64,000 nucleotides of DNA. Origin: Myxococcales bacterium (GTDB lineage Bacteria; Desulfobacterota; Binatia; UTPRO1; JBBIJE01). Within the stretch, counting starts at the first letter, position 1, and every line of letters starts with the position of its first letter. The notes beneath the pieces were generated by a model. The model worked only from the letters and a program-made list of their open reading frames with translations, was not told the DNA's origin and ran no database searches. Below are positions 153 through 22,643 of the stretch, piece after piece. The stretch is taken from the NCBI GenBank assembly GCA_037446155.1, contig JBBIJE010000002.1, forward strand, positions 9,171 to 73,170, given 5' to 3'. Position numbers and translations under genes: made by a program.

Positions 153-3068
153 TCAGACTGCTGCCTTCTCCATCTCTACGGCCGCCCCGCGCGGGGCCAT
201 GACCGGCGCGGCGTAATAGAAGCGGTAGTGGAGCTGACCGTAATCCCCGACAAGGTGGAGCGGCTTCCAGGGGCAAGCGACCGGCTCCTGATTGCCCTGC
301 CAATTGCGGAACTGGTAGGGCTCCCAAGCGTGATACACGATCACCTGCCCGGGCTGCACCGCCGGTGAAACTTTTACCTGCACCTCGAAGCTTCCGACGT
401 CGTTATAGATTCTCGCCCGATCCCCGTCTTTTATTCCCCGCGCCGCGCAATCGGCCGCCGCCGCGTACGCCACCGGCTCGCCCCTCTGCAGCTTTAGCAT
501 GTAAGCGTCGTCTCGCCATATGGCGTGGATGCTCCAGCGGGTGTGGCCGCCCGTCAGGCGAAGGGGATAGTCCCCGCCGCTTCGAGGAAGCTCTTTGTGG
601 GTGGGCAAGGCCTCGCCCAGCTCCAGGAACCAGGGGTGGTCGATGTAGAACTGCTGCCTCCCCGTAAGGGTGGGCCAAGGTTGTTTTCCTTCCACGAACC
701 AGCGCGAGGGAACGACCGTCTCGCCCTCCTTGAAATCGCTTGCGGTTGCGCACGTTGGACCGAACGATCCCGTGCTCTTGATGGGAACCATGCCCTCCTT
801 CGCGGCTTTGCTCCAACTCGCGCCGCGCGTGACCTCGGAGTCGCGAAGGAGGCGGTCCAACACCCCGGTATCGTCCTCGGGGGGATGCTTGCCATGGTCG
901 CTCCAGCGGTCGAATATGCTTGCCAGGCTCCTTTTCTTGCCGAGCGCGTCGGTGTACCCGTCCACACCTCGCGCTAAAGCCTGCTCCTGGATCGCCTTGG
1001 CCAAAAGGCCGAATATCTCCCACTCCCCTTTCGACTCGAAGAGCGGCTCCACCGCCCGATCGCCTACGACCACGTAAGGCAGATAGCTCTGCAAGTATTT
1101 GATACCTCGCTTCTCGTAGTAACCGGCCGCGGGGAGCAGAAGATCGGCCTTGAGCCCACTAGTGCACATCCTGAAATTGACGTCAACGATCAGCCTAAGC
1201 CGCCGCCAAAGCTCCCGCTCGACCACCTGCGGAGCCGGCCAGCGCCGAAGCGGGTTCGCCCCGGTGAAAATGAATATCTCGGGGGCCTTGGGGGGCGAAG
1301 GGTAAACCGGCATCCAGCCCTTCTCGAGCGCCTCCTCGACGTACCGGCGAAAGGGGCGCCTCAGTGCGCCGTCGTGGCCAGCTTCACCGTCCAGCACCGA
1401 GGCCAGGCCCCCGTGGAGGTAGAGCCAAAGAAGCGAGGGGGAGAAAACGAGCTCCTTTTTCGATACCTCGGTGTAGATCTCCTCGAGCTCGCGGGCACCC
1501 AAGCTCACGAACTTTAGCAGGAGCCGCTGCCACCACGCTGGCTCGATCCCCGTAGCCCACCTGTCCCCTCCGCTCATCCCGTACCACGCCGCAAGTCGCA
1601 TCCCCCCTCCCGGCCTCCCCTGGTTGCCGGTCAGCGCCATGAGAAGGATCAAAGCCCTCTGCATGAGGTCGCTATGGTAGTATTTGCAAGCGCCCCAGGA
1701 TGCGAAAATCATCGCGGCGGGAGCCCTGGCCATCTCCCTGGCCATTTGCCGAATGAGGCCGGGGCCCACACCTGTTATCTTCGCCGCCTCCTCCGGGGTA
1801 TAGCGTGCCAGATGCGCCTCGAGAAGCGAAAAGACGGTCGAAACCTCCAGCTTGTCGCCGCTTGCGCCGACGACGGTGAACCTCCCCTCGAGCGCCGGAT
1901 CGAGCCCATCGAGTCCGAGCCTTCCCTTTCCCAGGCCTTTGGAGCCAGGGCTCGGCTCGAGTCCCTGCCTTGCGCGATCCCAGAGGTAGAAAACGTCCTC
2001 CTTCCCGCCCTTTTCGAGATCGGATTGGCGCAGGAAGCGTCCATTGTCCAGGCGCACGAGAAGTGGGAGATCGGTCTGCTCCTTGACGTAGGCAGCATCG
2101 TAGAGCCCCTCGGACACGATCACCTGGGCGAGCGCAAGCGCCAGCGCGGGATCAGTCCCGACCTTGGGATTGACCCAGAGATCGGCCCTGGTGGCGGTGG
2201 CGTTGTAATCGGGCGCTACCACCACGAGCTTGGCGCCGCGGTAGCGCGCCTCGAGCATGAAGTGGAGGTCGGGGATCCTGGTGTAGGAAGGATTGCCCAT
2301 CCAGACGACTATGTAGTCGGAATTGAACCAATCATCCGAGGTGCCCTCGACATTGAACATGCCCCAGGTTTGCACCGCACCGATGGCAAGGTCGCCCACG
2401 CCGGCGTAGGAATCGAGAAAAGTCGCCCCCAAGAGGCTGAAGAGCCACATCTCGCCCAAGCTTGCCGGCCCGACGTCCAAGTTGGAGGTGCCGTGATCGT
2501 ATATTATACATTCAGGCCCCCGCTTCTCGTCGGCGCACACATCGACGATCGCCTCCGCGACCTCCCGAAGCGCCTCCTCCCAAGTGATCCGCTTGAAGCG
2601 CCCCGATCCCCTGGGGCCCAGGCGTTTTAGGGGATACTTCAAGCGGCTTGCGCTGTAGCTCAGGGCGCTGTAGCAGGCTCCCTTCTGGCAGCCGCGCGGC
2701 GAGAAATCGGGGACGGCGGCATGGGATCTTCCGTACGATCCCCGCTGCTCCTCGCGCCAAACCAGGCCGTCGCGAACGAACACGTCCCAAGCACAGGCGC
2801 TGAAGCAGTTGGCGCGAAGATGGGTGCATCGTACCACGCGATCCCACTTCCACTTTTGCCGGTAAAGATCCTCCCAGGAGCGGTACTCGTACCCCTCTGC
2901 TGCTTGCGGCGCGGTTCCATCTGGCGGGGAGGCGAGGGCGGCAAGCCTGAGATTTACGAGGGAGAGGAAAACCGCCCCGGCCGCACCCGCCGCGAGAAAC
3001 TGGCGCCTGCTCAGCCGAGGCTCCACCACCCCTCCCCTTCCGCCCGCCGCCACCGGCTCGAGGCCCAT
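153..3068 (-). CDS. Molybdopterin (bis-PGD) oxidoreductase catalytic subunit, type II DMSO-reductase family, paralog alpha1, Tat-exported
   Basis: ORF 153-3131; likely start at MGLEP (3068). Tat motif SRRQFLAAGAAGAV. The YRSWEDLYRQKWKWD...THLRANCFSACAW motif is an H-x4-C-x3-C FS0-type cluster site (residues 104-113 of the 992-aa ORF, about 2793-2822). Molybdopterin-oxidoreductase-like sequence throughout. Highly similar to alpha3 (e.g. FASWGACKYYHSDLMQRALILLMALTGNQGRPGGG vs FASWGSCKHYHSDLMQRAMILLVALTGNQGKPGGG). Confidence 0.9.
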   Translation of the reverse strand: MGLEPVAAGGRGGVVEPRLSRRQFLAAGAAGAVFLSLVNLRLAALASPPDGTAPQAAEGYEYRSWEDLYRQKWKWDRVVRCTHLRANCFSACAWDVFVRDGLVWREEQRGSYGRSHAAVPDFSPRGCQKGACYSALSYSASRLKYPLKRLGPRGSGRFKRITWEEALREVAEAIVDVCADEKRGPECIIYDHGTSNLDVGPASLGEMWLFSLLGATFLDSYAGVGDLAIGAVQTWGMFNVEGTSDDWFNSDYIVVWMGNPSYTRIPDLHFMLEARYRGAKLVVVAPDYNATATRADLWVNPKVGTDPALALALAQVIVSEGLYDAAYVKEQTDLPLLVRLDNGRFLRQSDLEKGGKEDVFYLWDRARQGLEPSPGSKGLGKGRLGLDGLDPALEGRFTVVGASGDKLEVSTVFSLLEAHLARYTPEEAAKITGVGPGLIRQMAREMARAPAAMIFASWGACKYYHSDLMQRALILLMALTGNQGRPGGGMRLAAWYGMSGGDRWATGIEPAWWQRLLLKFVSLGARELEEIYTEVSKKELVFSPSLLWLYLHGGLASVLDGEAGHDGALRRPFRRYVEEALEKGWMPVYPSPPKAPEIFIFTGANPLRRWPAPQVVERELWRRLRLIVDVNFRMCTSGLKADLLLPAAGYYEKRGIKYLQSYLPYVVVGDRAVEPLFESKGEWEIFGLLAKAIQEQALARGVDGYTDALGKKRSLASIFDRWSDHGKHPPEDDTGVLDRLLRDSEVTRGASWSKAAKEGMVPIKSTGSFGPTCATASDFKEGETVVPSRWFVEGKQPWPTLTGRQQFYIDHPWFLELGEALPTHKELPRSGGDYPLRLTGGHTRWSIHAIWRDDAYMLKLQRGEPVAYAAAADCAARGIKDGDRARIYNDVGSFEVQVKVSPAVQPGQVIVYHAWEPYQFRNWQGNQEPVACPWKPLHLVGDYGQLHYRFYYAAPVMAPRGAAVEMEKAAV

Positions 3069-3167
3069 GTCTCGCCGGGCCGACAGCCGCCCAAGCTCGT
3101 CCCCTTCTCGCAAGCCCTTACCCCATCGCACCAGGGGCGAGCCGGCGCGATCGCGGCCCGGCCGGGA

Positions 3168-5363
3168 TCAGTACTCATACGTGCTCCAGTCGATCTCTTC
3201 CTCCTCCCGCGGCTGCACCACGAGATGAGCCTCCAGGTCGTCCACCGCCATCATGAAATCCGTGACCGCATCGATTCGCCGCTCCGGCTCGGGCACCTTC
3301 GGGTATCCATCGATATCGTAGAATACCAGCGGCATGCGGGTCTCCAAGCCCGCCACCTTCTTCGGATTGCGCAAAAACTCCCTCACCCACTCGGGCCTGA
3401 GCCGCTTCTTGGTAAGCGCCAGATTGATCGAAAGATCGTCCGGATCGACGTCTTTCGGCAGGCCCTGCTCGATCGAGGCCGGGTGGCACTGCATGCATTT
3501 GTTCACGCGAAACACGCTGGCGCCGAGCTCCACGTTGTGCTGGTCTATCTTGGCGGGATCGACCTTCACGTAGTGGCGGGATTCGACTCCGGCCGACGCC
3601 GAGAAGTAATCCACGAGCGCCTCCGCGCTCGCGTCGTCGAAGTCGAAGTTCGGCATCCTCACCTTGAGCCATGGGCGCAGGGCTTCGGGCTTTTTCAGGT
3701 ATTCGAAGAGCCACTGGGGCTGTACTCTCGCGCCCTCGCCGGTAAGCGTGGGCGGGGCCCAGGTCTTGCGCTCGACGAACTCCTTCATGTTGCCCCCCTC
3801 GCCCTCGATCTCGTGGCAGCCGCGGCAGTGCAGGTGTGCAACCATGAGCCTGCCGCGCAAGAGAGCCTCCGTAGCGGGAGTCGCCCTTATGGTATAGGCT
3901 GCCGGCATCTCGGATCCGTCGAAGCTCAGGACGTATGTGACCAGGGCGCGAACGTCCTCCTCGGAAAGTTTGACCACGGGCATCCTGAGCTTGATGTTCT
4001 CCCGCTCGTAGGCCCTGGGCTCCGCAAGCTTCTTTACCAGCCAGTCCCACTTCGTTCGCGGCACGCCTTTCACCTCGCCGAAATCGAGCTCTTCCACCGG
4101 CCGCGCCGCGAACTCGCTCAAGTCGGGAACGCTGAGCGGCGTCTTCTCGAATCCTTTGATCTCGTGGCAGCCGAAGCACTCCATCTTCTCGACGAGCTTT
4201 TTCCCCTTCTCGGGATCCCCTCCCTCGGTAAGCTTGGCGAAATCGGCGAGCTTCTCCTCCCCCTGCTTCTGCTCGGCCAGATAGGCCACGATGTCGCGCC
4301 GCTCCTCTTCCGTGAGCTCGAGCTTGGGCATCGGAGTGGCGGGGTTGTATTTTTTCGGGTCCGCGATCCAGCGATCCAACCATTCCACGCTGACCTTGAC
4401 CCCGATTCCAGCCAGATGGGGAACGCGCCGGCTGACGCTCTTGTCCTGCGGCTCGACCGCGTGGCAGCCGCGACACCCCTTTTCCTTGAAAAGATTCTCG
4501 CCCCGGCTCGAAGAGGCGCCCGCCAGCGATACGCTCTCGAGCGGCGGCTGCTCGGGCATGGTGTCCAGGAAAGCGAGGAGGTCCCTCACCTCGTCTTCTT
4601 TCAGGAAGAAGTGAGGCATCACGGTGTCCTCCTTCGCCTTGGTCGGATCGGACACCCACATGGCGAGCCAGCGGCGGTCCTCGATCTTTCCCTTTATCGT
4701 GGAAAGCGAGGGAGCGAATTTCGGCAGAGCGAGCTTGCGCGCGGTGCGGTGGCATCCCTCGCATCCCAGCTCGACGAAGCGAACCTCCCCCTTTGCGGCG
4801 ACCTCCGCTCCCGCCAGCCCCTGGACGATCTCGTGGCAGCGAGCGCACCTCGCCTGGGCGTACTTGACCGGCAACATGGGCTGGGTTCCCTCGCCCACCA
4901 GGCCGTGCGCCGCCTCCACCGTGCTCCCCACTCCGAGGCCTCCATGGCACACGGTACAGCCGAACCTCGCCACCTGATGGGTTTTGAGATAGTCGCCCGA
5001 GTGGCTGCGAAAGGGCTGGGGCTCGTCGGCGAAGAGCGGATTATCGGTCGCGGCATGGCAGGTCGTGCAGTGATCCACCGCGCCGATCGCCGGAACGTAG
5101 ATCTGTTTTAGCTCCTCCTTCATCCCCGCCGCTTCGGCCTTCAGGCGCTCCAGCTTGGCGACCTCTTTCTCGTCGCCGGCCTCCTTCGCTTCCGCCGCCT
5201 TCCGCTCGAGAAGCTCCAGGTATCTGGCGCGAAAGTCGCTCTGGTATTTTCGCCAAGGCGGAGCGGTTTCTCGCACCACCGCCAGGGCGCAGAGAAGAAG
5301 AAATAGCGGGCCCGCGATCCCCATCGTGAAACGCAGACCCGGACTCCCACGCATCAAGCGCAA
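3168..5363 (-). CDS. Membrane-anchored octaheme c-type cytochrome
   Basis: Eight CxxCH motifs (CTTCH, CTVCH, CARCH, CEGCH, CRGCH, CFGCH, CRGCH, CMQCH). N-terminal hydrophobic anchor MGIAGPLFLLLCALAVV. Sits between the cytochrome b genes and alpha1. Confidence 0.85.
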   Translation of the reverse strand: MRLMRGSPGLRFTMGIAGPLFLLLCALAVVRETAPPWRKYQSDFRARYLELLERKAAEAKEAGDEKEVAKLERLKAEAAGMKEELKQIYVPAIGAVDHCTTCHAATDNPLFADEPQPFRSHSGDYLKTHQVARFGCTVCHGGLGVGSTVEAAHGLVGEGTQPMLPVKYAQARCARCHEIVQGLAGAEVAAKGEVRFVELGCEGCHRTARKLALPKFAPSLSTIKGKIEDRRWLAMWVSDPTKAKEDTVMPHFFLKEDEVRDLLAFLDTMPEQPPLESVSLAGASSSRGENLFKEKGCRGCHAVEPQDKSVSRRVPHLAGIGVKVSVEWLDRWIADPKKYNPATPMPKLELTEEERRDIVAYLAEQKQGEEKLADFAKLTEGGDPEKGKKLVEKMECFGCHEIKGFEKTPLSVPDLSEFAARPVEELDFGEVKGVPRTKWDWLVKKLAEPRAYERENIKLRMPVVKLSEEDVRALVTYVLSFDGSEMPAAYTIRATPATEALLRGRLMVAHLHCRGCHEIEGEGGNMKEFVERKTWAPPTLTGEGARVQPQWLFEYLKKPEALRPWLKVRMPNFDFDDASAEALVDYFSASAGVESRHYVKVDPAKIDQHNVELGASVFRVNKCMQCHPASIEQGLPKDVDPDDLSINLALTKKRLRPEWVREFLRNPKKVAGLETRMPLVFYDIDGYPKVPEPERRIDAVTDFMMAVDDLEAHLVVQPREEEEIDWSTYEY

Positions 5364-5381
5364 GCGCTCACCTCCCCGTCG

Positions 5382-6110
5382 CTAGATGTTGAACCAGGGC
5401 GTCACCAAGAGGTAACGCACACTGAGAAAGATCCTGAGCAGCATTTTTATCGGCACCGCGTACATGAGGAGCGTCAGGACCATCACGGTGTAATAGCGCC
5501 CAGCTCCGAGTCCCTGTTTGAGCCACGGCCAGCGCCTGGCCGGAAGGGCGATTCCCAGGCCGAAATACAAGAGGAGCAGCGGCCCGCCCACCCACCAGGG
5601 AAAGCTCCACAGGCTCTCCTCGGCCGGCTTTACCACCTCCCAGCTTTCCCACGGCCAGTAGAACTGCCAATTGGGGCCGCGCAACACCTGTCCTATGGCA
5701 ATGAGAACCCACCAGAGAGCGAAACCGAAGAGGAAATGGGCGATGGCGAGCCGCCTGCCGGCGAACTGGTACCGGCCGACCCCGACGGTGCTGGTGTCGA
5801 GAAAGGGTATGATCATGAGGCCCACGATTATGAGAGTCGGCAAGACGACCCCGGCGAACCAGGGGTCGAAATAAACGAGAAGCTCTTGCAAGCCGACGAA
5901 GTACCAGGGAGCCTTGGCTGGGTTCTCCGTGCGGTTGGGATCGGCCATGGCGCGAAGCGGGGCGTTTTGCACGAGCGCCCACACCATGAGGCCGCAGCTA
6001 ACGATCAGCGCGGCCAAGAATTCTTTGTAAACGAGCTCCGGGAAGACCGCGACCCGCCCCGGCCCGAATCCCTCGTCGTCGATCCTGCCTTGCTCGTTGC
6101 GCTCGCTCAT
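5382..6110 (-). CDS. Cytochrome b C-terminal half (subunit IV / PetD-like) of a Rieske/cytochrome b complex
   Basis: Within ORF 5382-6449. Start MSERNEQ at 6110 overlaps the upstream stop as ATGA. Motif [19 protein letters not shown] matches the PEWY region of cytochrome b/subunit IV. Several predicted TM helices with a C-terminal extension. Confidence 0.8.
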
Positions 6111-6910
6111 AGCGGACAGGAAATCCCGCCGTCCTTTCTCACGCGCCAGAAGTGGATGAACATGAGAATGCCAGCGATCAGGGGGAGCGCCACGCAGTGC
6201 AGGACATAGAAGCGAAGCAGCGCGTTGCCCCCCACACGAACGTCTCCCAAAAGGAGAAAGCGCGCGTCGTTGGTGGGCGTTACCCCTAGGAATTCGTGGA
6301 AGGGGCCCTCGGCGCCGATAAAGGGCGTAGCCGCCGCCATGTTGGTGCCGACCGTGATCGCCCAAAACGCCAGTTGATCCCAGGGGAGGAGATAGCCGGT
6401 GAAGCTCAAAAGCAGCGTGAGCACGAGCAGCACGACGCCGACCACCCAATTGAACTCCCGCGGGGGCCGGTAAGAACCGGTAAGAAAAACCCTGAGCATG
6501 TGGAGCATGACGAGCAGGACCATGAGGTGCGCTCCCCAGCGGTGGAGATTTCTAAGCGGCACTCCGAAGAGCACCCCATGTTCTAGAACCAGCATGTCGA
6601 GATAGGCCCACTCGGGAGTGGGCCGGTAATAGAACATGAGATAAACGCCCGTTATCGTCTCCACGATGAAGAGAAAGAGCGCAAGCCCCCCCAAGCAGAA
6701 GGTAAACCGCACCTTGAGGGCGGCTTTGGGGAGGCTCACCGGGTGCAGATGCAGAAAGAAGTTGCTCGTTACCTCGAGCGCGCGGTTTCTCACCGTGTCG
6801 GCATAGCCGTGCCGGAGCACCGCGGTCACCGGCTGACTCTCGCGGATCTTGCGCCCGACGCGGCGCAACCGCTCGCCGAATCTCTCCCTCCTAGGTGCCG
6901 GCCTGCTCAT
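6107..6910 (-). CDS. Cytochrome b6-like N-terminal half (di-heme cytochrome b)
   Basis: [25 protein letters not shown] and [28 protein letters not shown] carry the conserved heme-ligand His pairs of the cytochrome b N-terminal domain. The gene is split from the subunit-IV-like piece as in b6f/b6c complexes. Confidence 0.85.
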
Positions 6911-6934
6911 TTTGCTCTCTCGTTCCTCATCCCC

Positions 6935-7300
6935 TCAGTAGGGGAGCTCGCCGTGCTCGCGCTCCCACTGCTCGATCGGAACCATAGCGATCGCATCCCA
7001 GGGGCAGCCGGCCACGAAGCAACCCATCTGGCCCGAGGCAAGACAAGCGCGACAGCCGACGCACTTCAAGGGATCGACCCAGATCCTGCCGAACGGATAA
7101 GCATCGTCGGCCGGCTCGAGAATCATGCAATCCTCGACCGGGCAGAAAACCTGGCAGACCGGTGCGCCGGCGCAACCCGTGCACGCATCCGAAACGACGG
7201 CGATCGCCTTGGGCTTGCGCTTTCGCCTGCCGACCAACCGGCCGGCAGGGCCCTTGCCCGCTTTGGCGCTCGCAAGCGTCACTACCGCCCCCTGTTGCAC
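6935..7300 (-). CDS. 2[4Fe-4S] ferredoxin-domain protein
   Basis: Two cluster motifs: CTGCAGAPVCQVFCP and CVGCRACLASGQMGCFVAGCP. Lys/Arg-rich N-terminus. Placed between the Rieske and cytochrome b genes. Confidence 0.7.
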   Translation of the reverse strand: MQQGAVVTLASAKAGKGPAGRLVGRRKRKPKAIAVVSDACTGCAGAPVCQVFCPVEDCMILEPADDAYPFGRIWVDPLKCVGCRACLASGQMGCFVAGCPWDAIAMVPIEQWEREHGELPY

Positions 7301-7313
7301 ATCAGTCTCCCGC

Positions 7314-7913
7314 TCAGCCGAGAAGAACGAACGAATCGGGGTGGTCGAAGCTATCCGCCTCGAACACCTTGCTTGTGTCCACTACCAACATGCCGCTCAA
7401 GTCGACGCCGATTTTGAGCCTCGGCAACGGCCGGGGCGCGGGCCCGGAAAAGTTGACGCCGTTGCTATGGTACTCGCTGCCGTGGCAGGGGCAGCGGAAC
7501 TGCCTCGCCGAGGCGAACCAGTTGACCGTGCAGCCTAGATGAGTGCAGCGGCCCGACATGGCGAAGATCCGATCCTGCTGCCGGACGACGAAAAACCGGT
7601 AGCGGCGCTTCCAGGTCTCGTCCACTTCGATCACCCCGTAGGCGTCGGGGGTCCCGCCCCGCATGAACTCCTCGGGCGCCCCGATCCTGAACGTGGTGGG
7701 GGGCTGGTAAAGCACTCGGGGGAAGAAAAAGCGCAGGGTCTCGATCCCCGCCACCCCCAAAGTGGCGATAAACCCACCCCATCCCGCCAGGGTGAGGCCG
7801 CTCAGCAGAAGCTCGCGCCTGGCAAGCGACTCTTTGGCGCCCTCGCCGGCCTCTCCCGGCCCGACCAAGGCGCGGATCACCTTCGCAGCCGCATCGTCCA
7901 GTGGCATGCGCAA
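7314..7913 (-). CDS. Rieske [2Fe-2S] iron-sulfur protein, Tat-dependent
   Basis: CTHLGC and CPCHGS Rieske boxes. Tat motif ARRELLLSGLTLAGWGG followed by a TM helix. Start lies 4 nt after the chaperone stop. Confidence 0.85.
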   Translation of the reverse strand: MRMPLDDAAAKVIRALVGPGEAGEGAKESLARRELLLSGLTLAGWGGFIATLGVAGIETLRFFFPRVLYQPPTTFRIGAPEEFMRGGTPDAYGVIEVDETWKRRYRFFVVRQQDRIFAMSGRCTHLGCTVNWFASARQFRCPCHGSEYHSNGVNFSGPAPRPLPRLKIGVDLSGMLVVDTSKVFEADSFDHPDSFVLLG

Positions 7914-7917
7914 CCCT

Positions 7918-8580
7918 CTACTCAGCGCGCTTTAGAAGTCCCTCCACCCAATTTCGGTCACGGGTCGTGAACCCGACGGTCAAGGAAACCAGATCGGCGA
8001 AAAACTGGAGCGGCTCCTGCTTCGCGAGCTTGGCTGCCATGAGCGGCAGCCATTTCACGACTTGCCGCTCCAGAAAATCCCGCGTAGCCCGCCTGAAAGC
8101 GCCGCAATCATGACCTGCGTGGAGCGCGCGCGTTTCGCAAAAACTCAGGTAATGGAGAAACTCGAGCTCGGTGGTCAAATGGTCGGGAAGCTCGCGCTGG
8201 GTGCTCGACAGAGACAGCCCGAAGTGGCTGTAGAACCGCATCACTTCCTCCATCACCCGCATTCTCGCTCGCCCGTAGTGTCCCCCGTAGAGCGGACAGG
8301 GCGGGCCGCCCACCCCGACGTCGAACAGGCGAATGTACTCGGCCTGGAAGTCGTCGTACGAACAGGTGGCCGAAAGGGCGCCAAGCTCCCCGAAGTCGTA
8401 GGGAAGACCGGCCAAGAGGCCGCCGAGCTCATCGCGCAGCGTACCGCCAGCGACCGACGCGTGAAATTCCTCGGTGGGAAACCGGAAGCAGGAGGCGAGC
8501 GCCGCGTACACTCGGCTTCTCGCCGCAGCCGCCCTCTCCTCTTCCCCGCTTAGATCCCTGATTTCCACGTTCACGTCCAT
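7918..8580 (-). CDS. TorD/NarJ/EbdD-family cofactor-insertion chaperone (delta subunit)
   Basis: About 220 aa, Tat-proofreading-chaperone-like, with LPDHLTTELEFLHYL resembling the TorD-family signature. Overlaps the beta gene stop by 10 nt. Confidence 0.75.
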   Translation of the reverse strand: MDVNVEIRDLSGEEERAAAARSRVYAALASCFRFPTEEFHASVAGGTLRDELGGLLAGLPYDFGELGALSATCSYDDFQAEYIRLFDVGVGGPPCPLYGGHYGRARMRVMEEVMRFYSHFGLSLSSTQRELPDHLTTELEFLHYLSFCETRALHAGHDCGAFRRATRDFLERQVVKWLPLMAAKLAKQEPLQFFADLVSLTVGFTTRDRNWVEGLLKRAE

Positions 8581-9689
8581 CTAAGCTCCGCCGGATCCTG
8601 CGTGAGATGGCTGAATAGCTCCTTCCACTGGTAAACGATCAAGAGGTCCATGAGCTCGGACTTCTCGCCCCGGCGCGTCTTCGCCATCTCTCCCTTCAGC
8701 GTCTCGAGCGCCCGCTCGACCTCGTCCCCGAAGAGATACTGCAAGTACTTGAGCGGTATCCGGGGCTTGGTCTCGTCTATCTCCCCCCGTTCATTGAACC
8801 GCGGCGGCGCCAGCGGCGGCACGTAATAGACATTGGGCTCGGTTCCGGTCTCGGGGTGAAGCGGCAGCGCCACCTTCCACTCCTTTACCAGCTTGTAAAC
8901 GGGACTCGTCTCGTCGTCGAGCAATCCCACGAAACGAAGCCGGCCCGGGCACTGCCTGGCGCACGCCGGCGGCACCTTCTTCTCGACGCGCGGAAAACAA
9001 AAGATGCACTTTTGGGCCACCTTCTTCACATGATTGAAATATATCTTCTTGTAAGGGCAGGCCTCCATGCAAAACCGGTAGCCGCGACACCGCTTCTCGT
9101 CGATGAGCGTGATTCCGTCCTCTTTCCGCTTGTAGATGGCGTTACGGGGGCAAGCTTCCAAACAGGCCGGGTAGGAGCAATGGTTACAGATCCTCGGCAG
9201 GTAGAAATAGAAACTGTTGGGATACTGCCCGCCCCCCTGATCCTCGTCCCAGTTGGGACCCCACTTGGGCTCCTCGCCTTTTACTTTCAGATAAACGCCG
9301 TTCCCCTTCCCGCCTTGAAAGACCTCGTCGTAGTTGAACTCCCAGGCCGCTCCGAAATCGTCCACCAGCGGCAATTGCCCGGCTATAGGCTCCTTGAATT
9401 CCCCTCTGAAGCCGCCTCCCATCTTCTCCCAATCCTTGGGAGTGCCCTTGCCCGGCTGGGTGTTGACCGTCGCCCACCACATGTATTCCATACCCTCTTC
9501 GCGGGTCCACAGGGTCTTGCACGCTATGGTGCAGGTTTGGCATCCCAAGCACTTGTTCAAGTCGAACACCATCGCCAGTTGGTGATCTACCGTGCGAAGC
9601 TGCTCTTTCTTGGCCTTGGCTTCCCGCGCCAACTCCTCCTGCCGCTTCTTCTTTTCTTCCTCGAGCTGCTGCTGTGTCTTATCTGCCAT
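8571..9689 (-). CDS. Fe-S beta subunit of a type II Mo enzyme (NarH/EbdB-like, four Fe-S clusters)
   Basis: MVFDLNKCLGCQTCTIACK, CNHCSYPACLEACP, CRGYRFCMEACPY and CIFCFPR are the four ferredoxin-type Cys groups of NarH-family beta subunits. It also carries the family-specific insert (WEFNYDEVFQGG). Confidence 0.9.
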   Translation of the reverse strand: MADKTQQQLEEEKKKRQEELAREAKAKKEQLRTVDHQLAMVFDLNKCLGCQTCTIACKTLWTREEGMEYMWWATVNTQPGKGTPKDWEKMGGGFRGEFKEPIAGQLPLVDDFGAAWEFNYDEVFQGGKGNGVYLKVKGEEPKWGPNWDEDQGGGQYPNSFYFYLPRICNHCSYPACLEACPRNAIYKRKEDGITLIDEKRCRGYRFCMEACPYKKIYFNHVKKVAQKCIFCFPRVEKKVPPACARQCPGRLRFVGLLDDETSPVYKLVKEWKVALPLHPETGTEPNVYYVPPLAPPRFNERGEIDETKPRIPLKYLQYLFGDEVERALETLKGEMAKTRRGEKSELMDLLIVYQWKELFSHLTQDPAELRWT

Positions 9690-9750: not shown

Positions 9751-10410
9751 CTATGCCTCCAACTCGAAGTCGCGCCATTCCTTGGAGAAGCTCTTGACTC
9801 CGGCGCGCTCGCCGTTTCCGCCTTCCCAAACGGCAAACCCGATCTTGGTCGGCTTTCCCACTTCGAGTTTGACCGACTCATCCGGCGGGCCCCCTACCGC
9901 CAAGTTCCTCGCCAGCACCACCTGCCACTTCCCGTTCTCCCAGCGGGACTTGGCCTTTATGAAGCTCTCTTCGCTGTAGTTGGTGGTGCTGAGGCCTTCG
10001 GCCCAAACGTTCTTCGGCTGATCGGCGAAATCGGCGCGCCAGTACCAGGCATTGACCCGCTCCTCCTTGCGCCCCATCTCGTCTATCGGAGGCTCGTCCT
10101 TGATGGGGAACAAGACGCCGGCACCATCCGGAAATGTGTTGGTTTCCGTTACCTCGAGATTGCGCGCCTCGTCCGCCCATTCGAGCCTCAAGAACACCTG
10201 CCCTCCGTTGTGACAGCATTTGACCTCGAGCTCCCTCACCTTCCCGATCTTCTTTTCGTCACGCGAAGCTTTGATGTACTCGGAAGGCTGATTCGCAAGC
10301 GGCGTCGCCGCCATCTCGATCTTCTCCCCCGCCACGCCGCTCCACTGCCCCGAGGTCGGATCGAGCAATTCCTCCAAACTCGCGCTTACCTTCTTTGCCT
10401 TTATCGCCAT
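9751..10410 (-). CDS. Heme-b gamma subunit, ethylbenzene-dehydrogenase (EB_dh) domain family (EbdC/SerC/NxrC-like)
   Basis: Within ORF 9751-10455; start MAIKAKK at 10410 overlaps the anchor stop. RVNAWYWRAD (W-x-W) and the C-terminal WEGGNGERAGVKSFS...FEL are reminiscent of the EB_dh heme-b domain. About 219 aa, as for EbdC-type subunits. Confidence 0.7.
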   Translation of the reverse strand: MAIKAKKVSASLEELLDPTSGQWSGVAGEKIEMAATPLANQPSEYIKASRDEKKIGKVRELEVKCCHNGGQVFLRLEWADEARNLEVTETNTFPDGAGVLFPIKDEPPIDEMGRKEERVNAWYWRADFADQPKNVWAEGLSTTNYSEESFIKAKSRWENGKWQVVLARNLAVGGPPDESVKLEVGKPTKIGFAVWEGGNGERAGVKSFSKEWRDFELEA

Positions 10411-10964
10411 CTCTCTCCTCCTATCTCTCGACGCAGACCGCTCGGCGCGGCCCACGCACGATCTAACGCCGCCGTTTTACCTCTAGCCCCCTCCCCTTCG
10501 CGCGCAAAAATCCAGCGCAGCGCTTTCAGTGCCCGCTCGGTACCCACTACTAAGATGTGCAAGCCCAGCACCGCCGCAGCGGCATAGGTGAGCCACTCGT
10601 GGATCGAAAACATCCGATCCGCAAGCTGAATGGAAAAATGGTCCGGCTTCCAGATGACGAGGCCGCTTGCACCGAAGATCAGGGTGACCCAGTAAGTGTA
10701 ACGCACGTGGATGCCCCGCCACCACCCCGTGAAGCGCCACGGGGGCATCTTGGGCCAGCGCCGCGCCCCGGCGTACACCACGAGAGGCACCACGAGCGAG
10801 ACGATGCCAAACCAGAGGTGGATCTCCTTGATCGTAGCGGAATAGCCGCCGACGAAGCGCGCCCGAAGCTCGGGAAAAAGGAGGAGGAGGGCGGTCCCGA
10901 AGGTCACCGTGAAAAGAGCGGCGTGACTCGTGTGCAAAACGAAAAGATAACTCGGCTTTCTCAT
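10401..10964 (-). CDS. His-rich polytopic membrane protein, putative heme-b membrane anchor/quinol-interacting subunit
   Basis: Within ORF 10401-11015; start MRKPSY at 10964. About 5 hydrophobic helices with His in or near them (LHTSHAALF, EIHLWFG, GIHVRY, SIHEWL, GLHILVV). First gene after the 200-bp gap downstream of alpha2. Confidence 0.5.
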   Translation of the reverse strand: MRKPSYLFVLHTSHAALFTVTFGTALLLLFPELRARFVGGYSATIKEIHLWFGIVSLVVPLVVYAGARRWPKMPPWRFTGWWRGIHVRYTYWVTLIFGASGLVIWKPDHFSIQLADRMFSIHEWLTYAAAAVLGLHILVVGTERALKALRWIFAREGEGARGKTAALDRAWAAPSGLRREIGGERWR

Positions 10965-11164
10965 CGGCCGCTCTGATCGAACCCCAAATTTGCGAACGGC
11001 AAGCGCCCATTGCATCGGCCGCCCCGCTCCGTTTCGCCTTCCCGTCCCCTTCCATAATCGCGCGCGCTGCAGGCGGCGCGCAATCCCCCGATCGGGGTAG
11101 CCCGTACATGCTTTCGATGAGCAGGAGCGAACGTACGGTTACACTCTTCCATCGGCCGTCCGGG

Positions 11165-14100: not shown

Positions 14101-14179
14101 TTAGCGATGTAAGCGAGAGCGCGAGCATTGTGGTGCCTGTTACCTTGAGGAAATCCCGCCGCGTGAACAACACTCCCAT
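11165..14179 (-). CDS. Molybdopterin oxidoreductase catalytic subunit, paralog alpha2 (divergent), Tat-exported
   Basis: Tat motif TRRDFLKVTGTTMLALSL. YRSWEDLYREKWRWDKV then THCVDCYPGNCAW (H-C-x2-C-x4-C, about 13955-13984) differs from the H-x4-C-x3-C of alpha1 and alpha3. 1004 aa. Molybdopterin-oxidoreductase-like sequence throughout. Confidence 0.9.
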   Translation of the reverse strand: MGVLFTRRDFLKVTGTTMLALSLTSLRPRASVAEEAVVGPQGYTYRSWEDLYREKWRWDKVTKGTHCVDCYPGNCAWHVYVRDGLILREEQQARYPVIEPGVPDMNPRGCQKGASFSKVTYGAERVLYPLKRVGERGQGKWKRVSWDEALTDIADQMISTIKEKGPESIVFEMGPGNIGIFQALSVGRFATTLGATTLDVDALIGDFNVGNYITYGKFQHCSSQDDWFHAELTLIWHMNPVYTRIPGAHYITEGRYHGAEVVSIAPDYNASSIHADLYVPVNFGCDAALALGMCNVIVTENLHNAAFVKEQTDLPLLVRRDTKKFLRQSDLESGGRNDQFYFLDAKSGKIVQAPRATLELEGVDPALEGTVQVKLQDGKEVTVEPVFALLKEHLKAYTPEQASQLCGTSPQIIRLLAKKVASKRTNVLMGWNSNKYYHGDLMERSMALLLGLTGNWGKKGTGNRGWNESGDPKEFTFGRNVATVEEYERLAKLMDDLNEKIRAQDPTMTDEMVAIERDRLTSSLVGTVPPVFYWYHHAGYREVWNKKEWSDPSMKRSFDDYYKEALEKGWWEGYVLPEPTRPPEVLFGLAGSTLRRTRGGYKQLLQNLWPKLKLIVTVDPRMSTTALYSDYVLPVAWFYERPDFRFFTPHVTFNTFTDKAVDPLGESLTEFEIFGRLAKKIGERAKAQGLEEYKRTRPVPKALISMAGGTLGALLSRLAETEIGERVVRALFPGQGAVMGRTRRFDRIYTRYTYGEQIKENEMEKALELFAEDSVREGLFPPGSNLAKYRKDGFVRFTSLGKYDPVSLNVAGDIKPNETVSCLTFHTEKKIPYPTLTRRAQFYIDHDWFLEAGEALPVHKPNPTMGGNYPFRMTSGHQRWSIHSIWVTNKVLLMTHRGQPFMFMNPEDAKKKAIKDGEVVKVFNDFSSFKVSVKLAPSARPGQLIIYHAWEPYQFPGQVPYDAAIPGMVKWLHLAGDYGHLKYWRWNWQPQQADRAVAVDVQKI

Positions 14180-17731: not shown

Positions 17732-17982
17732 GCTAACCTTCCTACCGGTCGGGAGGGTAGATTGTAAAGGGCGACGCGTCATCCAAGAATGTGATTTTTG
17801 TCAGTTTTTTCGACGGGCCTCTCCGCGCAAGAAAAACGGCGGCGGCGGACCGAGCCGACTATCGAGCCCAGCCAGACTGCCCCCCCGTCGGGCCAGCGAA
17901 GAGGCGAAGCGCCAGCCAGGGCTGGTCCGCGGAGCGCCGTCCCCTGGTGCCGCCCAGGCCCGCCTGCTAAGTACCCAAACCC

Positions 17983-18700: not shown

Positions 18701-18830
18701 TCAAGAGCTATCCAATCAGGCGCGGCCTGCGAGACCGCCCGAGGTACCCAAGACAATGAAGAGCCAAAGCCCGCCAAACCTCCCTGACGAGTCCGCCGGC
18801 TGGGCAGGCGCGCGCCCGGCGCTCGCCCCG

Positions 18831-22631: not shown

Positions 22632-22643
22632 AGCGGCTTCCCC

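What the first reader, a model, noticed from the sequence alone, without database searches (positions are those of the whole stretch)
3168..7913. Unusual Rieske/cytochrome b module: split b6 plus subunit IV, an inserted 2[4Fe-4S] ferredoxin, and a membrane-anchored octaheme cytochrome c
The cytochrome b is split as in b6f/b6c complexes (b6-like 267 aa, then a subunit-IV-like piece of about 243 aa with a C-terminal extension). A ferredoxin-like protein with two CxxCxxC...CP motifs sits between Rieske and b6. The c-type partner carries eight CxxCH motifs and its own TM anchor, rather than the mono- or di-heme c1/f usually found. Multiheme-cytochrome-containing bc complexes are known from anammox bacteria and Geobacter-type Cbc complexes. 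An Fe-S ferredoxin subunit plus an octaheme inside a Mo-enzyme operon is, to my knowledge, atypical.
Basis: partly seen in the sequence, partly recalled or inferred. Interest (0 to 1): 0.68.

Follow-up and report, generated by a model that had tools for sequence, protein, structure and literature searches.

The report
Ferredoxin-bearing Rieske/b6 complex with octaheme
This is a real five-gene respiratory "complex III" of the split cytochrome-b6 type, which carries an eight-heme cytochrome already known from nitrite oxidisers and anammox bacteria plus a small iron-sulfur ferredoxin gene that I could not find described for such complexes; it sits inside an operon for a periplasmic molybdenum enzyme, and the ferredoxin may link membrane quinol chemistry to low-potential cytoplasmic electrons.

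Summary
On the minus strand, 3168-7913 encodes Rieske, a 121-aa 2[4Fe-4S] ferredoxin (Fd), cytochrome b6, an enlarged subunit IV (SUIV) and a membrane-anchored cytochrome c with eight CxxCH motifs.

All five are conserved genes. The module lies inside a 13-gene operon with an ethylbenzene-dehydrogenase-type (type II DMSO-reductase family) periplasmic Mo enzyme: three alpha paralogs and one beta, gamma and chaperone.

The octaheme is not a catalytic HAO/OTR/MccA-type enzyme. It is an electron wire of three bis-His hemes plus five His/Met class I domains. It is the standard partner of the "APWY" clade of Rieske/b6 complexes, also found in Nitrospinota and other phyla.

The distinctive part is the ferredoxin.
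- It has no signal peptide or TM helix.
- It is under purifying selection.
- It sits between Rieske and b6 in 19/19 Binatia-type loci.
- Two other MAGs interleave the operon: Rieske-Fd-Mo enzyme-b6-SUIV-cyt c.
- It is 50-60% identical in Planctomycetota, where it is often next to the Rieske/b6 operon or to cytochrome c maturation genes.

Most likely it is a cytoplasmic-side Fe-S subunit filling the slot of the NAD(P) oxidoreductase in anammox and Nitrospinota complexes. That role is inferred, not shown. Verdict: new variant of a known kind.

The parts
7314..7913 (-). Rieske [2Fe-2S] subunit (199 aa from the TTG; the gene call in the close relative L075 is 197 aa).
   Evidence: Pfam PF00355 E=5.6e-11. 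Boxes CTHLGC and CPCHGSEY, the 'SY' signature. RR motif plus a hydrophobic anchor. 56-62% identical orthologs directly upstream of the Fd gene in 16 Binatia-type loci; it lies off the contig end in L013, and the frameshifted L067 copy matches over only part of its length.
6935..7300 (-). 121-aa 2[4Fe-4S] ferredoxin-like protein, predicted cytoplasmic.
   Evidence: GTG start with a GGGAGA ribosome-binding site. Pfam Fer4_2 25.4 bits against a cut-off of 24.5. Cysteines 40, 43, 49, 53, 58, 80, 83, 86 and 99 are conserved: all nine invariant in the 26-sequence alignment, all at least 90% conserved among 138 sequences. No TM helix or signal peptide; the N-terminus is basic, 9 K/R and 0 D/E in the first 36 residues. 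171 homologs found. dN/dS 0.29 against L075. AF2 pLDDT 80.9, with only a generic ferredoxin fold.
6107..6910 (-). Cytochrome b6 (267 aa, 4 TM helices).
   Evidence: Pfam PF00033 E=6.7e-41. His123/137 and His238/253; Cys72 in the FCLGG motif. NCBIfam cytb_ExtP 267.6 bits, cut-off 290. N-terminal extension with a conserved 'RH' histidine, His34; the motif is FRH in relatives and LRH here.
5382..6110 (-). Subunit IV-like protein (242 aa, 5 predicted TM helices), Qo motif APWY.
   Evidence: Pfam PF00032 E=4.3e-6. TM prediction. The sequence [12 protein letters not shown] is found in all relatives examined. The L075 gene call is 242 aa.
3168..5363 (-). Membrane-anchored octaheme cytochrome c: TM helix, coiled region, a three-heme bis-His module and five His/Met class I domains.
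   Evidence: Eight CxxCH motifs. Pfam Cytochrom_C E=4.6e-38 and weak Cytochrome_C7/NrfB-like hits. His121, His129, His153 and Met249, Met345, Met461, Met570, Met677 are invariant in 39 sequences. The identical database protein P0121 is 728 aa.
7918..8580 (-). Type II DMSO-reductase-family chaperone (NarJ/EbdD-like), directly upstream of Rieske with a 4-nt gap.
   Evidence: Pfam Nitrate_red_del E=4e-19. TIGR03482 179 bits, cut-off 152.
8571..9689 (-). Fe-S beta subunit of the Mo enzyme.
   Evidence: TIGR03478 524.6 bits, cut-off 480.7. Pfam Fer4_11.
9751..10455 (-). Heme-b gamma subunit (EB_dh). The real start is probably about 10410 (MAIKAKK...).
   Evidence: Pfam EB_dh E=4.2e-32. TIGR03477 157 bits, cut-off 169.85. 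The L075 gene call is 219 aa.
10401..11015 (-). b561-like membrane cytochrome b.
   Evidence: Pfam Ni_hydr_CYTB 34.6 bits, cut-off 30.1. Three predicted TM helices. Present next to the gamma gene in many Binatia loci.
11165..14179 (-). Mo alpha subunit 2 (1004 aa, TAT signal), the most EBDH-like of the three.
   Evidence: 836 bits to ethylbenzene dehydrogenase alpha (2IVF_A) against 504 bits to PcrA; the Asp Mo ligand aligns. TIGR03479 999.6 bits. Its orthologs sit inside the interleaved operons of L066 and L072.
14199..17066 (-). Mo alpha subunit 1 (955 aa, TAT signal).
   Evidence: TIGR03479 1005.9 bits. EBDH 643 bits against PcrA 620 bits. 61% identical to alpha 3.
153..3131 (-). Mo alpha subunit 3 (TAT signal; the real start is probably downstream, as the L075 gene call is 957 aa), directly downstream of the octaheme gene.
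   Evidence: Pfam Molybdopterin and Molydop_binding. TIGR03479 955.8 bits, just under the cut-off of 984.75.
17060..17782 (-). TetR-family regulator, first gene of the operon; it overlaps the start of alpha 1.
   Evidence: Pfam TetR_N E=1.9e-15. The same gene accompanies the module in other Binatia loci.

Best explanation
The region encodes a complete Rieske/cytochrome b6 quinol:cytochrome c oxidoreductase of the 'APWY' clade.

SHOWN BY SEQUENCE
- Rieske, b6 (two b-heme His pairs plus the heme-ci cysteine motif) and an enlarged five-helix subunit IV form the membrane core.
- On the periplasmic side, a membrane-anchored octaheme cytochrome (three bis-His plus five His/Met hemes) takes the place of cytochrome c1/f.
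- A small 2[4Fe-4S] ferredoxin without any export signal is encoded between Rieske and b6.
- The module is one transcription unit with a periplasmic (TAT-exported) ethylbenzene-dehydrogenase-type Mo enzyme. That enzyme has three alternative catalytic alpha subunits sharing one Fe-S beta, one heme-b gamma and one chaperone.

INFERRED
- The ferredoxin is a stoichiometric subunit docked on the cytoplasmic (n) side of b6/SUIV. This is the slot filled by an Fe-S/FAD NAD(P) oxidoreductase in anammox complexes. In a Nitrospinota locus, NfnA- and GltD-like Fe-S flavoprotein genes lie directly upstream of Rieske, in the equivalent operon position.
- The ferredoxin gives the low-potential heme chain (bL, bH, ci) an electron exit to, or entry from, cytoplasmic low-potential carriers.
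- The octaheme is the periplasmic junction where electrons of the Mo enzyme's heme b meet the Rieske centre.

MOST LIKELY OPERATION
1. The Mo enzyme acts as a water-dependent hydroxylase or dehydrogenase.
2. Its high-potential electrons enter the octaheme.
3. From there they go either to a terminal oxidase or reductase, or through the complex running in reverse into the menaquinone pool.
4. In the reverse case, the ferredoxin would supply the low-potential electron at the Qo site (electron confurcation). This is the mirror image of the bifurcation proposed for anammox.

The direction of electron flow and the redox role of the ferredoxin are hypotheses.
For: Gene content and motifs.

The genes form a tight operon with gaps of 4-36 nt or overlaps from the chaperone through the octaheme gene.

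Distribution of the ferredoxin:
- It is a conserved family: 171 hits in one search, 332 clusters at 50% identity in another, with nine conserved cysteines.
- The order Rieske-Fd-b6-SUIV-octaheme holds in 19/19 Binatia-type loci. Most lie next to TetR-b561-gamma-beta-chaperone genes and up to five alpha paralogs.
- L066 (Thermodesulfobacteriota) and L072 have Rieske-Fd-alpha-gamma-beta-chaperone-b6-SUIV-octaheme. The Mo enzyme and the Rieske/b6 complex are therefore one genetic unit there, and the Fd stays with Rieske.
- Planctomycetota carry a 50-60% identical Fd. It lies directly upstream of Rieske in 8 loci and within 10 kb of the Rieske/b6 operon in 19 of 46.

Location and selection:
- No signal peptide or TM helix.
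- dN/dS 0.29.

The analogous slot in relatives:
- The Nitrospinota relative L069 has NfnA-like and GltD-like Fe-S flavoprotein genes directly upstream of Rieske.
- Anammox complexes carry a cytoplasmic NAD(P) reductase with an Fe-S chain. Their Rieske proteins measure +303 and +335 mV despite a menaquinone pool (PMC12954380).
- The Rieske here has the 'SY' signature, which correlates with 300-350 mV (PMC3509893).

Direction of flow:
- The APWY clade has been proposed to run in reverse, fed by a periplasmic hydroxylase in Geobacter metallireducens (PMC4122944).
- Alpha 2 is about 50% identical to ethylbenzene dehydrogenase (836 bits) with the Asp Mo ligand kept.
- Enoyl-CoA hydratase, Zn-alcohol dehydrogenase and acyl-CoA ligase genes lie just upstream.
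Against: - There is no experimental or structural evidence that the ferredoxin binds the complex. No multimer model could be made with these tools.
- In about half of the Planctomycetota loci the Fd is not near the Rieske/b6 genes. In 13 loci it is embedded among CcmF/CcmE/CcmH-like genes, and in others it lies near ResB/CcsA. This fits a cytochrome-maturation role as well.
- Related complexes in L070, L071 and L073 have no Fd within 8-10 kb, so the Fd is not needed by the whole clade.
- The Fd has a higher dN/dS than its neighbours.
- Alpha 1 and alpha 3 score almost equally to ethylbenzene dehydrogenase and to perchlorate reductase. A reductase reading with forward electron flow is therefore open.
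- The quinone type of the organism is unknown.
- The Foldseek result is only generic.
Confidence: 0.55

Rival explanations
1. The ferredoxin is an assembly or maturation factor rather than a permanent redox subunit. It would supply reducing power or act as a chaperone during heme attachment or assembly of the multiheme cytochrome and the Rieske/b6 complex.
For: Gene neighbourhoods in Planctomycetota:
- 13 loci place the Fd between CcmF/CcmE-like genes and a TPR protein that passes the Pfam threshold for the CcmH/CycH TPR domain.
- Seven loci have ResB/CcsA (System II) 2-5 kb upstream; five of these also carry the Rieske/b6 operon within the locus.
- 24 loci have a conserved block: a 168-aa membrane protein, a Cys-less thioredoxin-fold protein, then the Fd.

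Two further points fit this reading. Some relatives of the complex lack a nearby Fd. Its dN/dS is higher than that of the core subunits.
Against: - In Binatia-type loci no ccm genes are near, and the gene lies between two core subunits with 13- and 24-nt gaps.
- The specific version of this idea, attachment of heme ci, is excluded. The b6 proteins linked to the Fd in Planctomycetota lack the CxGG cysteine (WGMGG), while the Binatia ones have it.
- To my knowledge, no ferredoxin is a component of cytochrome c maturation Systems I, II or IV.
Confidence: 0.2
2. The Mo enzyme is a periplasmic reductase (for example of an oxyanion), and the Rieske/b6 complex runs forward. Quinol would reduce Rieske, then the octaheme, then gamma heme b, beta and alpha. 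This is the scheme proposed for haloarchaeal pNar. The three alpha subunits would give three alternative terminal acceptors. The ferredoxin's role would be secondary or unrelated.
For: - Haloarchaeal Rieske/cytb-pNar clusters provide the model (PMC3509893).
- Alpha 1 and alpha 3 score almost equally to perchlorate reductase PcrA (620 bits) and to ethylbenzene dehydrogenase (643 bits).
- The Rieske 'SY' signature suits a high-potential acceptor chain.
Against: - Alpha 2, the paralog conserved inside the interleaved operons of L066 and L072, is clearly EBDH-like (836 against 504 bits).
- From general knowledge, several alpha paralogs sharing one beta/gamma set is the pattern of the steroid and alkyl-chain hydroxylases of this family.
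- Neighbouring alcohol dehydrogenase, enoyl-CoA hydratase and CoA-ligase genes suggest substrate oxidation.
- The APWY clade has been linked to reverse operation.
Confidence: 0.25
3. The ferredoxin is periplasmic. It would be exported folded by hitch-hiking on a TAT substrate (Rieske or the Mo enzyme alpha/beta pair) and would wire the Rieske/octaheme side to the Mo enzyme.
For: - In L066 and L072 the Fd lies between Rieske and the alpha subunit.
- The beta and gamma subunits of this enzyme family also lack signal peptides and are presumably co-exported (general knowledge of EBDH).
Against: - Planctomycetota keep the Fd with the Rieske/b6 genes, and none of the window's Mo-enzyme proteins found a match in those loci.
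- The relatives' equivalent partners (NAD(P) reductase in anammox, Nfn/GltD-like genes in Nitrospinota) are cytoplasmic.
- The periplasmic side already has eight hemes to do this job.
- The basic N-terminal tail is not a TAT signal.
Confidence: 0.07
4. The ferredoxin is an ordinary soluble ferredoxin that merely happens to be encoded in this operon.
For: It is small, has only a generic fold and sits in varying contexts in Planctomycetota.
Against: - Its position is fixed in 19/19 Binatia-type loci.
- It stays next to Rieske in rearranged operons.
- It is linked to the Rieske/b6 genes in three phyla.
- It shows 50-60% identity across phyla, including family-specific N- and C-terminal extensions (GRRxKKPK and EWExxHGxLPY).
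Confidence: 0.05

Closest known systems
Anammox Rieske/cytochrome b complexes Kuste4569-4574 and Kustd1480-1485 of Kuenenia stuttgartiensis (PMC12954380)
   Same: Both have a b6-like four-helix cytochrome b plus an SUIV-like subunit. Both use a hexa- or octaheme cytochrome c instead of cytochrome f/c1. Both have a high-potential-type Rieske. Both have an extra Fe-S protein that is, or here is predicted to be, on the cytoplasmic side.
   Different: Here the extra protein is a 121-aa 2[4Fe-4S] ferredoxin with no FAD or NAD(P) domain. There is no HAO-like octaheme enzyme. The partner enzyme is an EBDH-type Mo enzyme.
Nitrospina/Nitrospinota b6-type complex with an 'atypical octaheme cytochrome c' (PMC3578206; locus L069)
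   Same: The operon core is the same: Rieske-b6-SUIV-octaheme. All eight heme sites align, the APWY motif is present and the CxGG cysteine is kept.
   Different: L069 has NfnA-like and GltD-like flavoprotein genes upstream of Rieske and no ferredoxin of this family. No type II Mo-enzyme alpha, beta or chaperone genes are adjacent, although an EB_dh/cytochrome c fusion gene lies about 7 kb downstream of the octaheme gene.
Geobacter Cbc6 / ExtOPQS cluster (GSU2930-2935)
   Same: These are the closest named relatives of b6 (ExtP model, 267.6 bits) and SUIV (ExtQ model). The cluster also combines Rieske, b6, an SUIV-like protein and multiheme cytochromes.
   Different: Scores are below the NCBIfam cut-offs. 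The Geobacter cluster has 12-, 10- and 4-heme cytochromes, no ferredoxin and no Mo enzyme.
Haloarchaeal Rieske/cytb-pNar gene clusters, and the Geobacter metallireducens p-cresol methylhydroxylase/APWY bc cluster
   Same: In both, a Rieske/cytochrome b complex is encoded together with a periplasmic redox enzyme: a type II Mo enzyme with an EB_dh-type heme-b subunit, or a water-dependent hydroxylase. For the Geobacter case a reversed Q cycle was proposed.
   Different: The haloarchaeal complex has an unsplit cytochrome b of a different clade and, in the published model, a high-potential b-type cytochrome as the periplasmic link rather than a multiheme c. The Geobacter enzyme is a flavocytochrome. 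Neither source I read mentions a ferredoxin, but I could not read the primary papers on either cluster.
Chloroplast and cyanobacterial cytochrome b6f
   Same: Split b6/SUIV, b6-type His spacing and the CxGG heme-ci motif. A debated electron input from ferredoxin/FNR at the n side is a functional parallel (PMC5600118).
   Different: APWY instead of PEWY. SUIV has five helices. An octaheme replaces cytochrome f. The ferredoxin is encoded within the operon.

Membership tests
Rieske/cytochrome b6-type (b6f/b6c) complex | Rieske protein with CxHxGC and CxCH cluster-binding boxes and a membrane anchor. | tested here: met
   C123THLGC and C141PCHGSEY; RR motif plus hydrophobic N-terminus; Pfam E=5.6e-11.
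Rieske/cytochrome b6-type (b6f/b6c) complex | Four-helix cytochrome b with two His pairs on helices B and D, with b6-type spacing. | tested here: met
   His123/137 (14 apart) and His238/253 (15 apart); four predicted TM helices; Pfam E=6.7e-41.
Rieske/cytochrome b6-type (b6f/b6c) complex | Separate subunit IV carrying the Qo (PEWY-type) motif. | tested here: met
   242-aa protein, Pfam Cytochrom_B_C, motif APWY at residue 67.
Rieske/cytochrome b6-type (b6f/b6c) complex | CxGG cysteine for covalent heme ci. | tested here: met
   FC72LGG. Actual heme attachment cannot be tested here.
Rieske/cytochrome b6-type (b6f/b6c) complex | Quinol:cytochrome c oxidoreductase activity with a Q cycle. | not testable with these tools
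   Needs biochemistry.
APWY clade of Rieske/cyt b complexes (Kao and Hunte 2014) | APWY as the Qo motif, on a split cytochrome b. | tested here: met
   [12 protein letters not shown] in the window and in all relatives examined (PMC4122944).
Anammox-type NAD(P)-reductase-bearing Rieske/b complexes | Cytoplasmic subunit with an Fe-S chain plus FAD and NAD(P) binding domains. | tested here: not met
   The extra protein is 121 aa with only 2[4Fe-4S] motifs. No flavin or nucleotide domain occurs in the operon.
Anammox-type NAD(P)-reductase-bearing Rieske/b complexes | b6 plus SUIV plus a hexa- or octaheme cytochrome c, with a high-potential Rieske. | tested here: inconclusive
   The architecture is met. 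The Rieske potential is only inferred from the 'SY' signature.
Geobacter Cbc6/Ext complex | Proteins reaching the NCBIfam equivalog cut-offs for ExtP, ExtQ and ExtS. | tested here: not met
   ExtP 267.6 against 290; ExtQ 46.8 against 150; ExtS 41.8 against 100.
Catalytic octaheme cytochromes (HAO, OTR, MccA) | A family-specific fold or HMM match, and unusual heme motifs (CxxCK, long-spacer CX15CH) or a crosslinking Tyr. | tested here: not met
   Only Cytochrom_C, CBB3 and weak c7/NrfB-like matches. No CxxCK or long-spacer motif. Five invariant Met ligands in class I domains.
Bacterial-type 2[4Fe-4S] ferredoxin | Two cysteine motifs, each ending in Cys-Pro, that together ligate two cubane clusters. 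| tested here: met
   C40x2C43x5C49x3C53P and C80x2C83x2C86x12C99P, conserved across the family: invariant in 26 sequences, at least 90% in 138. Fer4_2 is above the Pfam cut-off. The spacing is atypical. Cluster content is not testable here.
Type II DMSO-reductase family, EBDH-like enzymes (operon partner) | TAT-exported alpha with an Asp Mo ligand, NarH-like beta, EB_dh heme-b gamma and a dedicated chaperone. | tested here: met
   TIGR03479, TIGR03478 and TIGR03482 are above their cut-offs for alpha 1, alpha 2, beta and the chaperone. Alpha 3 and gamma are just below. RR signals are present and the Asp is kept. The EbdA equivalog cut-off (2000) is not reached, so the substrate is unknown.

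The most novel reading that the evidence does not exclude
The complex may be a natural Rieske/b6 enzyme with a built-in ferredoxin that couples three pools: quinone, a high-potential periplasmic heme chain and low-potential cytoplasmic Fe-S electrons.

Running forward, it would bifurcate menaquinol electrons. One would go to the octaheme and one, via bL/bH(/ci), to the ferredoxin.

Running backward, it would confurcate one ferredoxin electron and one electron from the periplasmic Mo-hydroxylase onto menaquinone. This would solve the problem of feeding roughly +250 mV hydroxylase electrons into a roughly -70 mV quinone pool without spending proton-motive force.

The ferredoxin family is widespread in Planctomycetota as well as in Binatia. 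It would therefore be a common, overlooked type of complex III. It would also be a natural model for the long-debated ferredoxin-to-quinone route at the n side of b6f.
Probability: 0.25. Interest if true: 0.85.

Novelty: new variant of a known kind. Interest (0 to 1): 0.6.

Why it matters
Rieske/cytochrome b complexes are normally closed on the cytoplasmic side, where electrons return to quinone. The only proposed exceptions are the anammox complexes with an NAD(P) reductase, and these are still unproven.

A second, simpler and much more widespread solution would show that tapping the low-potential branch of the Q cycle is a general evolutionary option. Here that solution is a 121-aa ferredoxin encoded with the core subunits in Binatia-type MAGs and two further MAGs, one assigned to Thermodesulfobacteriota, and genetically linked to the complex in Planctomycetota.

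It would give tractable test organisms, because cultured, aerobic planctomycetes exist (general knowledge; whether those strains carry this ferredoxin was not checked). Two questions could be addressed with them: quinone-based bifurcation or confurcation, and ferredoxin-quinone electron transfer at heme bH/ci.

The fusion with an EBDH-type Mo enzyme also suggests how anaerobic or micro-oxic hydrocarbon or alkyl hydroxylases hand their electrons to the respiratory chain. For this enzyme family that step is, to my knowledge, largely unknown.

Tried and rejected
1. The ferredoxin as a factor attaching heme ci to b6. This idea came from the ccm neighbourhoods and from the statement that heme-cn attachment outside cyanobacteria is a mystery. 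Rejected: all Planctomycetota b6 proteins linked to the Fd have WGMGG with no cysteine, whereas the Binatia ones have FCLGG.

2. A Geobacter Cbc6/Ext ferredoxin. I recalled ExtM as an Fe-S protein. The paper shows that ExtM is a 12-heme cytochrome and that the cluster has no ferredoxin.

3. A correlation between the conserved n-side His (FRH) of b6 and the presence of the Fd. The His is present in all 38 Fd-linked b6 proteins and absent in L069 and L070. However, it is also present in L071 and L073, which have no nearby Fd. Inconclusive.

4. Rosetta-stone fusions of the Fd with other domains. None was convincing; the longer proteins look like mis-called starts or chimeras.

5. The structure route. 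The first AF2 model, from 26 sequences, was unusable (pLDDT 53). A 138-sequence alignment gave pLDDT 80.9. Foldseek then returned only weak generic hits, with best E=0.09: FwdF polyferredoxin, PsaC, NuoI and PscB. A pseudo-multimer of Fd+b6+SUIV was prepared from 36 paired loci.

6. Exact-match look-ups of the window's own b6 and Fd found no record. The source is inferred only from relatives named Candidatus Binatia.

7. Substrate of the Mo enzyme. Homologs carry only generic names, so it remains unresolved.

8. Papers on Binatia/Binatota with Rieske or molybdopterin: none relevant. The primary papers on the Geobacter p-cresol cluster are not held.

Full report
**1. What is there**

The window has 60-66% G+C across 2-kb windows. 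The region lies in a long run of minus-strand genes. From upstream to downstream the genes are:

| Gene | Coordinates | Notes |
|---|---|---|
| TetR regulator | 17060-17782 | |
| Mo alpha 1 | 14199-17066 | |
| Mo alpha 2 | 11165-14179 | |
| b561-like membrane cytochrome | 10401-11015 | |
| EB_dh heme-b gamma | 9751-10455 | |
| Fe-S beta | 8571-9689 | |
| NarJ-like chaperone | 7918-8580 | |
| Rieske | 7314-7913 | |
| Ferredoxin (Fd) | 6935-7300 | |
| Cytochrome b6 | 6107-6910 | |
| Subunit IV (SUIV) | 5382-6110 | |
| Octaheme cytochrome c | 3168-5363 | |
| Mo alpha 3 | 153-3131 | |

Assignments come from Pfam and NCBIfam. Gaps from the chaperone to the octaheme gene are 4-27 nt or overlaps. A relative with 92-94% nucleotide identity (L075, Logan SRR24236065) has the same 13 genes in the same order.

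**2. The five proteins of the finding**

- *Rieske.* It has both cluster boxes, C123THLGC and C141PCHGSEY, and an RR-containing anchor. The Ser and Tyr after box II form the 'SY' signature. In PMC3509893 this signature correlates with a 300-350 mV potential.
- *b6.* It has four predicted helices. The His pairs 123/137 and 238/253 have b6-type spacing. Cys72 lies in FCLGG, the CxGG heme-ci motif.
- *SUIV.* It is 242 aa with five predicted helices, two more than the canonical three. Its Qo motif is APWY.
- *Cytochrome c.* It has one N-terminal helix, a charged coiled stretch and eight CxxCH motifs. In an alignment of 39 family members from several phyla, His121, His129 and His153 are invariant, as are Met249, Met345, Met461, Met570 and Met677. 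I read this as three bis-His hemes followed by five His/Met class I domains, each with an 'MP' motif. There is no CxxCK or long-spacer motif and no match to a catalytic octaheme family.
- *Ferredoxin.* It has a GTG start behind a GGGAGA site. It has no TM helix or signal peptide, and its N-terminal tail is basic. Nine cysteines are conserved: all nine are invariant among the 26 sequences, and four are invariant with the other five at 90% or more among the 138. They form C40x2C43x5C49x3C53P and C80x2C83x2C86x12C99P, plus Cys58.

**3. Is the ferredoxin a real gene?**

Yes, on three grounds.
- A database search found 171 homologs; the 120 best listed are all at least 54% identical.
- A profile search of representatives at 50% identity found 332 clusters, 37 of them below E=1e-30.
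- Against L075 its dN/dS is 0.29, compared with 0.03-0.10 for the neighbouring genes. Four of the ten amino-acid changes fall in the variable N-terminal tail and none touches a cysteine.

**4. Distribution and context**

A scan of one genome per species returned 65 loci. I mapped the window's proteins onto them.

*Binatia-type loci.* Nineteen loci have Rieske-Fd-b6-SUIV-octaheme in this order. They are mostly named Candidatus Binatia or 'Deltaproteobacteria bacterium'. Many are flanked by TetR-b561-gamma-beta-chaperone genes and by one to five alpha paralogs (L004 has at least five).

*Interleaved operons.* L066 (Thermodesulfobacteriota) and L072 have Rieske-Fd-alpha-gamma-beta-chaperone-b6-SUIV-octaheme. 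The alpha there is the alpha 2 type, 51-53% identical. In L072 the Fd ORF had not been called by the gene finder. I consider this interleaving the strongest evidence that the Mo enzyme and the Rieske/b6 complex work together, and it shows that the Fd travels with Rieske.

*Planctomycetota (46 loci).* The Fd is 50-60% identical to the window's.
- It lies directly upstream of Rieske in 8 loci.
- It lies within 10 kb of the Rieske/b6 operon in 19 loci.
- In 24 loci it follows a conserved pair: a 168-aa membrane protein and a one-helix thioredoxin-fold protein without any cysteine. Some of these are also close to ResB/CcsA.
- In 13 loci it sits among CcmF, a CcmE-like gene, a HAD hydrolase and a CcmH-type TPR protein, with no Rieske/b6 genes nearby.

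*More distant relatives of the octaheme.* These show the same core without this Fd.
- A Nitrospinota locus has NfnA-like and GltD-like flavoprotein genes directly upstream of Rieske (L069).
- Three loci have a HEAT-repeat gene upstream of Rieske (L070, L073 and one locus without DNA); L071 has no such accessory gene upstream.

**5. What is known**

- An octaheme partner of a split b6 complex was noted for Nitrospina and anammox (PMC3578206).
- The Kuenenia complexes Kuste4569-4574 and Kustd1480-1485 combine b6, SUIV, hexa- or octaheme cytochromes and a cytoplasmic NAD(P) reductase with an Fe-S chain. Their Rieske proteins are at +303 and +335 mV although the quinone is menaquinone. A bifurcation that reduces NAD(P)+ has been proposed. 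AlphaFold3 models place an extra heme b at the dimer interface, ligated by an N-terminal His of b6 (PMC12954380).
- According to Kao and Hunte, no member of the APWY clade has been characterised. One Geobacter metallireducens member is clustered with p-cresol methylhydroxylase, and a reversed Q cycle was proposed for it (PMC4122944).
- Haloarchaea cluster a Rieske/cytb complex with periplasmic Nar (PMC3509893).
- The Geobacter Ext/Cbc6 cluster gives the best named matches to b6 and SUIV, but below the family cut-offs, and it has no ferredoxin.
- I found no paper describing a small ferredoxin encoded with a Rieske/b complex. The held library is incomplete, so this is not proof of absence.

**6. 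The Mo enzyme**

All three alpha subunits have RR signals and keep the Asp Mo ligand. Alpha 2 scores 836 bits to ethylbenzene dehydrogenase against 504 bits to perchlorate reductase. Alpha 1 and alpha 3 are 61% identical to each other and score about equally to both enzymes. The substrate is unknown, because homologs carry only generic names. Enoyl-CoA hydratase, Zn-alcohol dehydrogenase and acyl-CoA ligase genes lie a few kb upstream. This weakly favours an oxidative, hydroxylase role.

**7. Interpretation**

*Shown:* a complete APWY-type Rieske/b6 complex with a conserved octaheme wire; a conserved ferredoxin gene without an export signal in the operon; and genetic fusion with an EBDH-type Mo enzyme.

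*Inferred:* the ferredoxin is an n-side Fe-S subunit, analogous in position to the anammox and Nitrospinota flavoprotein. The octaheme joins the Mo enzyme's heme b to the Rieske centre. Electrons from substrate hydroxylation then go to a terminal oxidase or, by reverse or confurcating operation, into the quinone pool.

The main rival is that the Fd is an assembly or maturation factor, as the planctomycete ccm neighbourhoods suggest. The specific heme-ci version of that idea is excluded, because the planctomycete b6 proteins lack the cysteine. A forward-running, reductase-feeding chain of the haloarchaeal pNar type also remains possible.

**8. Limits**

- No multimer modelling was possible.
- The Fd monomer model (pLDDT 80.9) matches only generic ferredoxin folds.
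- The organism is known only by similarity to Binatia MAGs.
- The quinone type and the direction of electron flow are unknown.

**9. Verdict**

The octaheme and the clustering with a periplasmic redox enzyme have precedents. As far as I could find, the ferredoxin subunit does not. This is a new variant of a known kind, of moderate to high interest.

Noticed in passing
window 153-3131, 11165-14179, 14199-17066; L004:1-9234 and 17593-20313; L067: Three paralogous Mo alpha subunits share one beta/gamma/chaperone set in the window. L004 has at least five alpha paralogs around the module. L067 shows many fragmented alpha matches, which look like frameshifts or assembly errors.
   Followed up: partly
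window 10401-11015: A b561/Ni_hydr_CYTB-like membrane cytochrome b is encoded just upstream of the EB_dh gamma subunit and overlaps it. It recurs in many Binatia loci but not in L066 or L072. It could be a second, direct link between the Mo enzyme and the quinone pool.
   Followed up: partly
L030:7850-10312; L021-L055 (24 loci): In Planctomycetota the ferredoxin is preceded by a conserved block: a 168-aa membrane protein and a one-helix thioredoxin-fold protein with no cysteines. The thioredoxin-fold domain is predicted to be cytoplasmic. A membrane-anchored HEAT-repeat protein often lies nearby. These may be further accessory subunits or assembly factors.
   Followed up: partly
L031, L033, L037, L040, L045, L046, L058, L059, L061, L062, L068: In a second planctomycete lineage the ferredoxin lies between CcmF/CcmE-like/HAD genes and a TPR protein that passes the Pfam CcmH/CycH TPR threshold, followed by rpsT. 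No Rieske/b6 genes occur within 10 kb.
   Followed up: partly
L070:4530-5393; L073:6393-7328; the locus of P0221 (no DNA): A HEAT-repeat protein is encoded directly upstream of Rieske in more distant members of the same octaheme Rieske/b6 family that have no nearby ferredoxin.
   Followed up: no
b6 alignment, window b6 residues 25-85: The b6 proteins of Planctomycetota in this family have WGMGG instead of the CxGG heme-ci motif, so they probably lack covalent heme ci. A conserved n-side histidine (FRH in relatives, LRH in the window; window His34) is present in all Fd-linked b6 proteins. It is absent in L069 and L070 but present in L071 and L073.
   Followed up: partly
L069:2691-5012: In a Nitrospinota MAG, NfnA-like (DHODB Fe-S) and GltD-like (Fer4_20/Pyr_redox_2) genes sit directly upstream of Rieske-b6-SUIV-octaheme. 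They are followed by a cytochrome bd-like/cytochrome c fusion and by Mrp/Nuo-type antiporter-like genes.
   Followed up: no
L072:398-655: An 86-aa ferredoxin ORF, 44% identical to the window's, lies between Rieske and the Mo alpha subunit. The collection's gene finder did not call it, so this family is probably under-annotated.
   Followed up: yes
window 19194-27000; L075:500-5805: Upstream of the operon lie a DUF364/DUF4213 protein, an enoyl-CoA hydratase, a Zn-alcohol dehydrogenase and an acyl-CoA ligase. In the close relative L075, TatA/B genes, a Crp-family regulator and a short-chain dehydrogenase also lie there. This may be a catabolic pathway for the Mo enzyme's product.
   Followed up: partly
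window 9751-10455: The gamma (EB_dh) subunit has no recognisable signal peptide. I presume it is co-exported with the TAT-signal alpha/beta pair, as I recall is assumed for ethylbenzene dehydrogenase.
   Followed up: no
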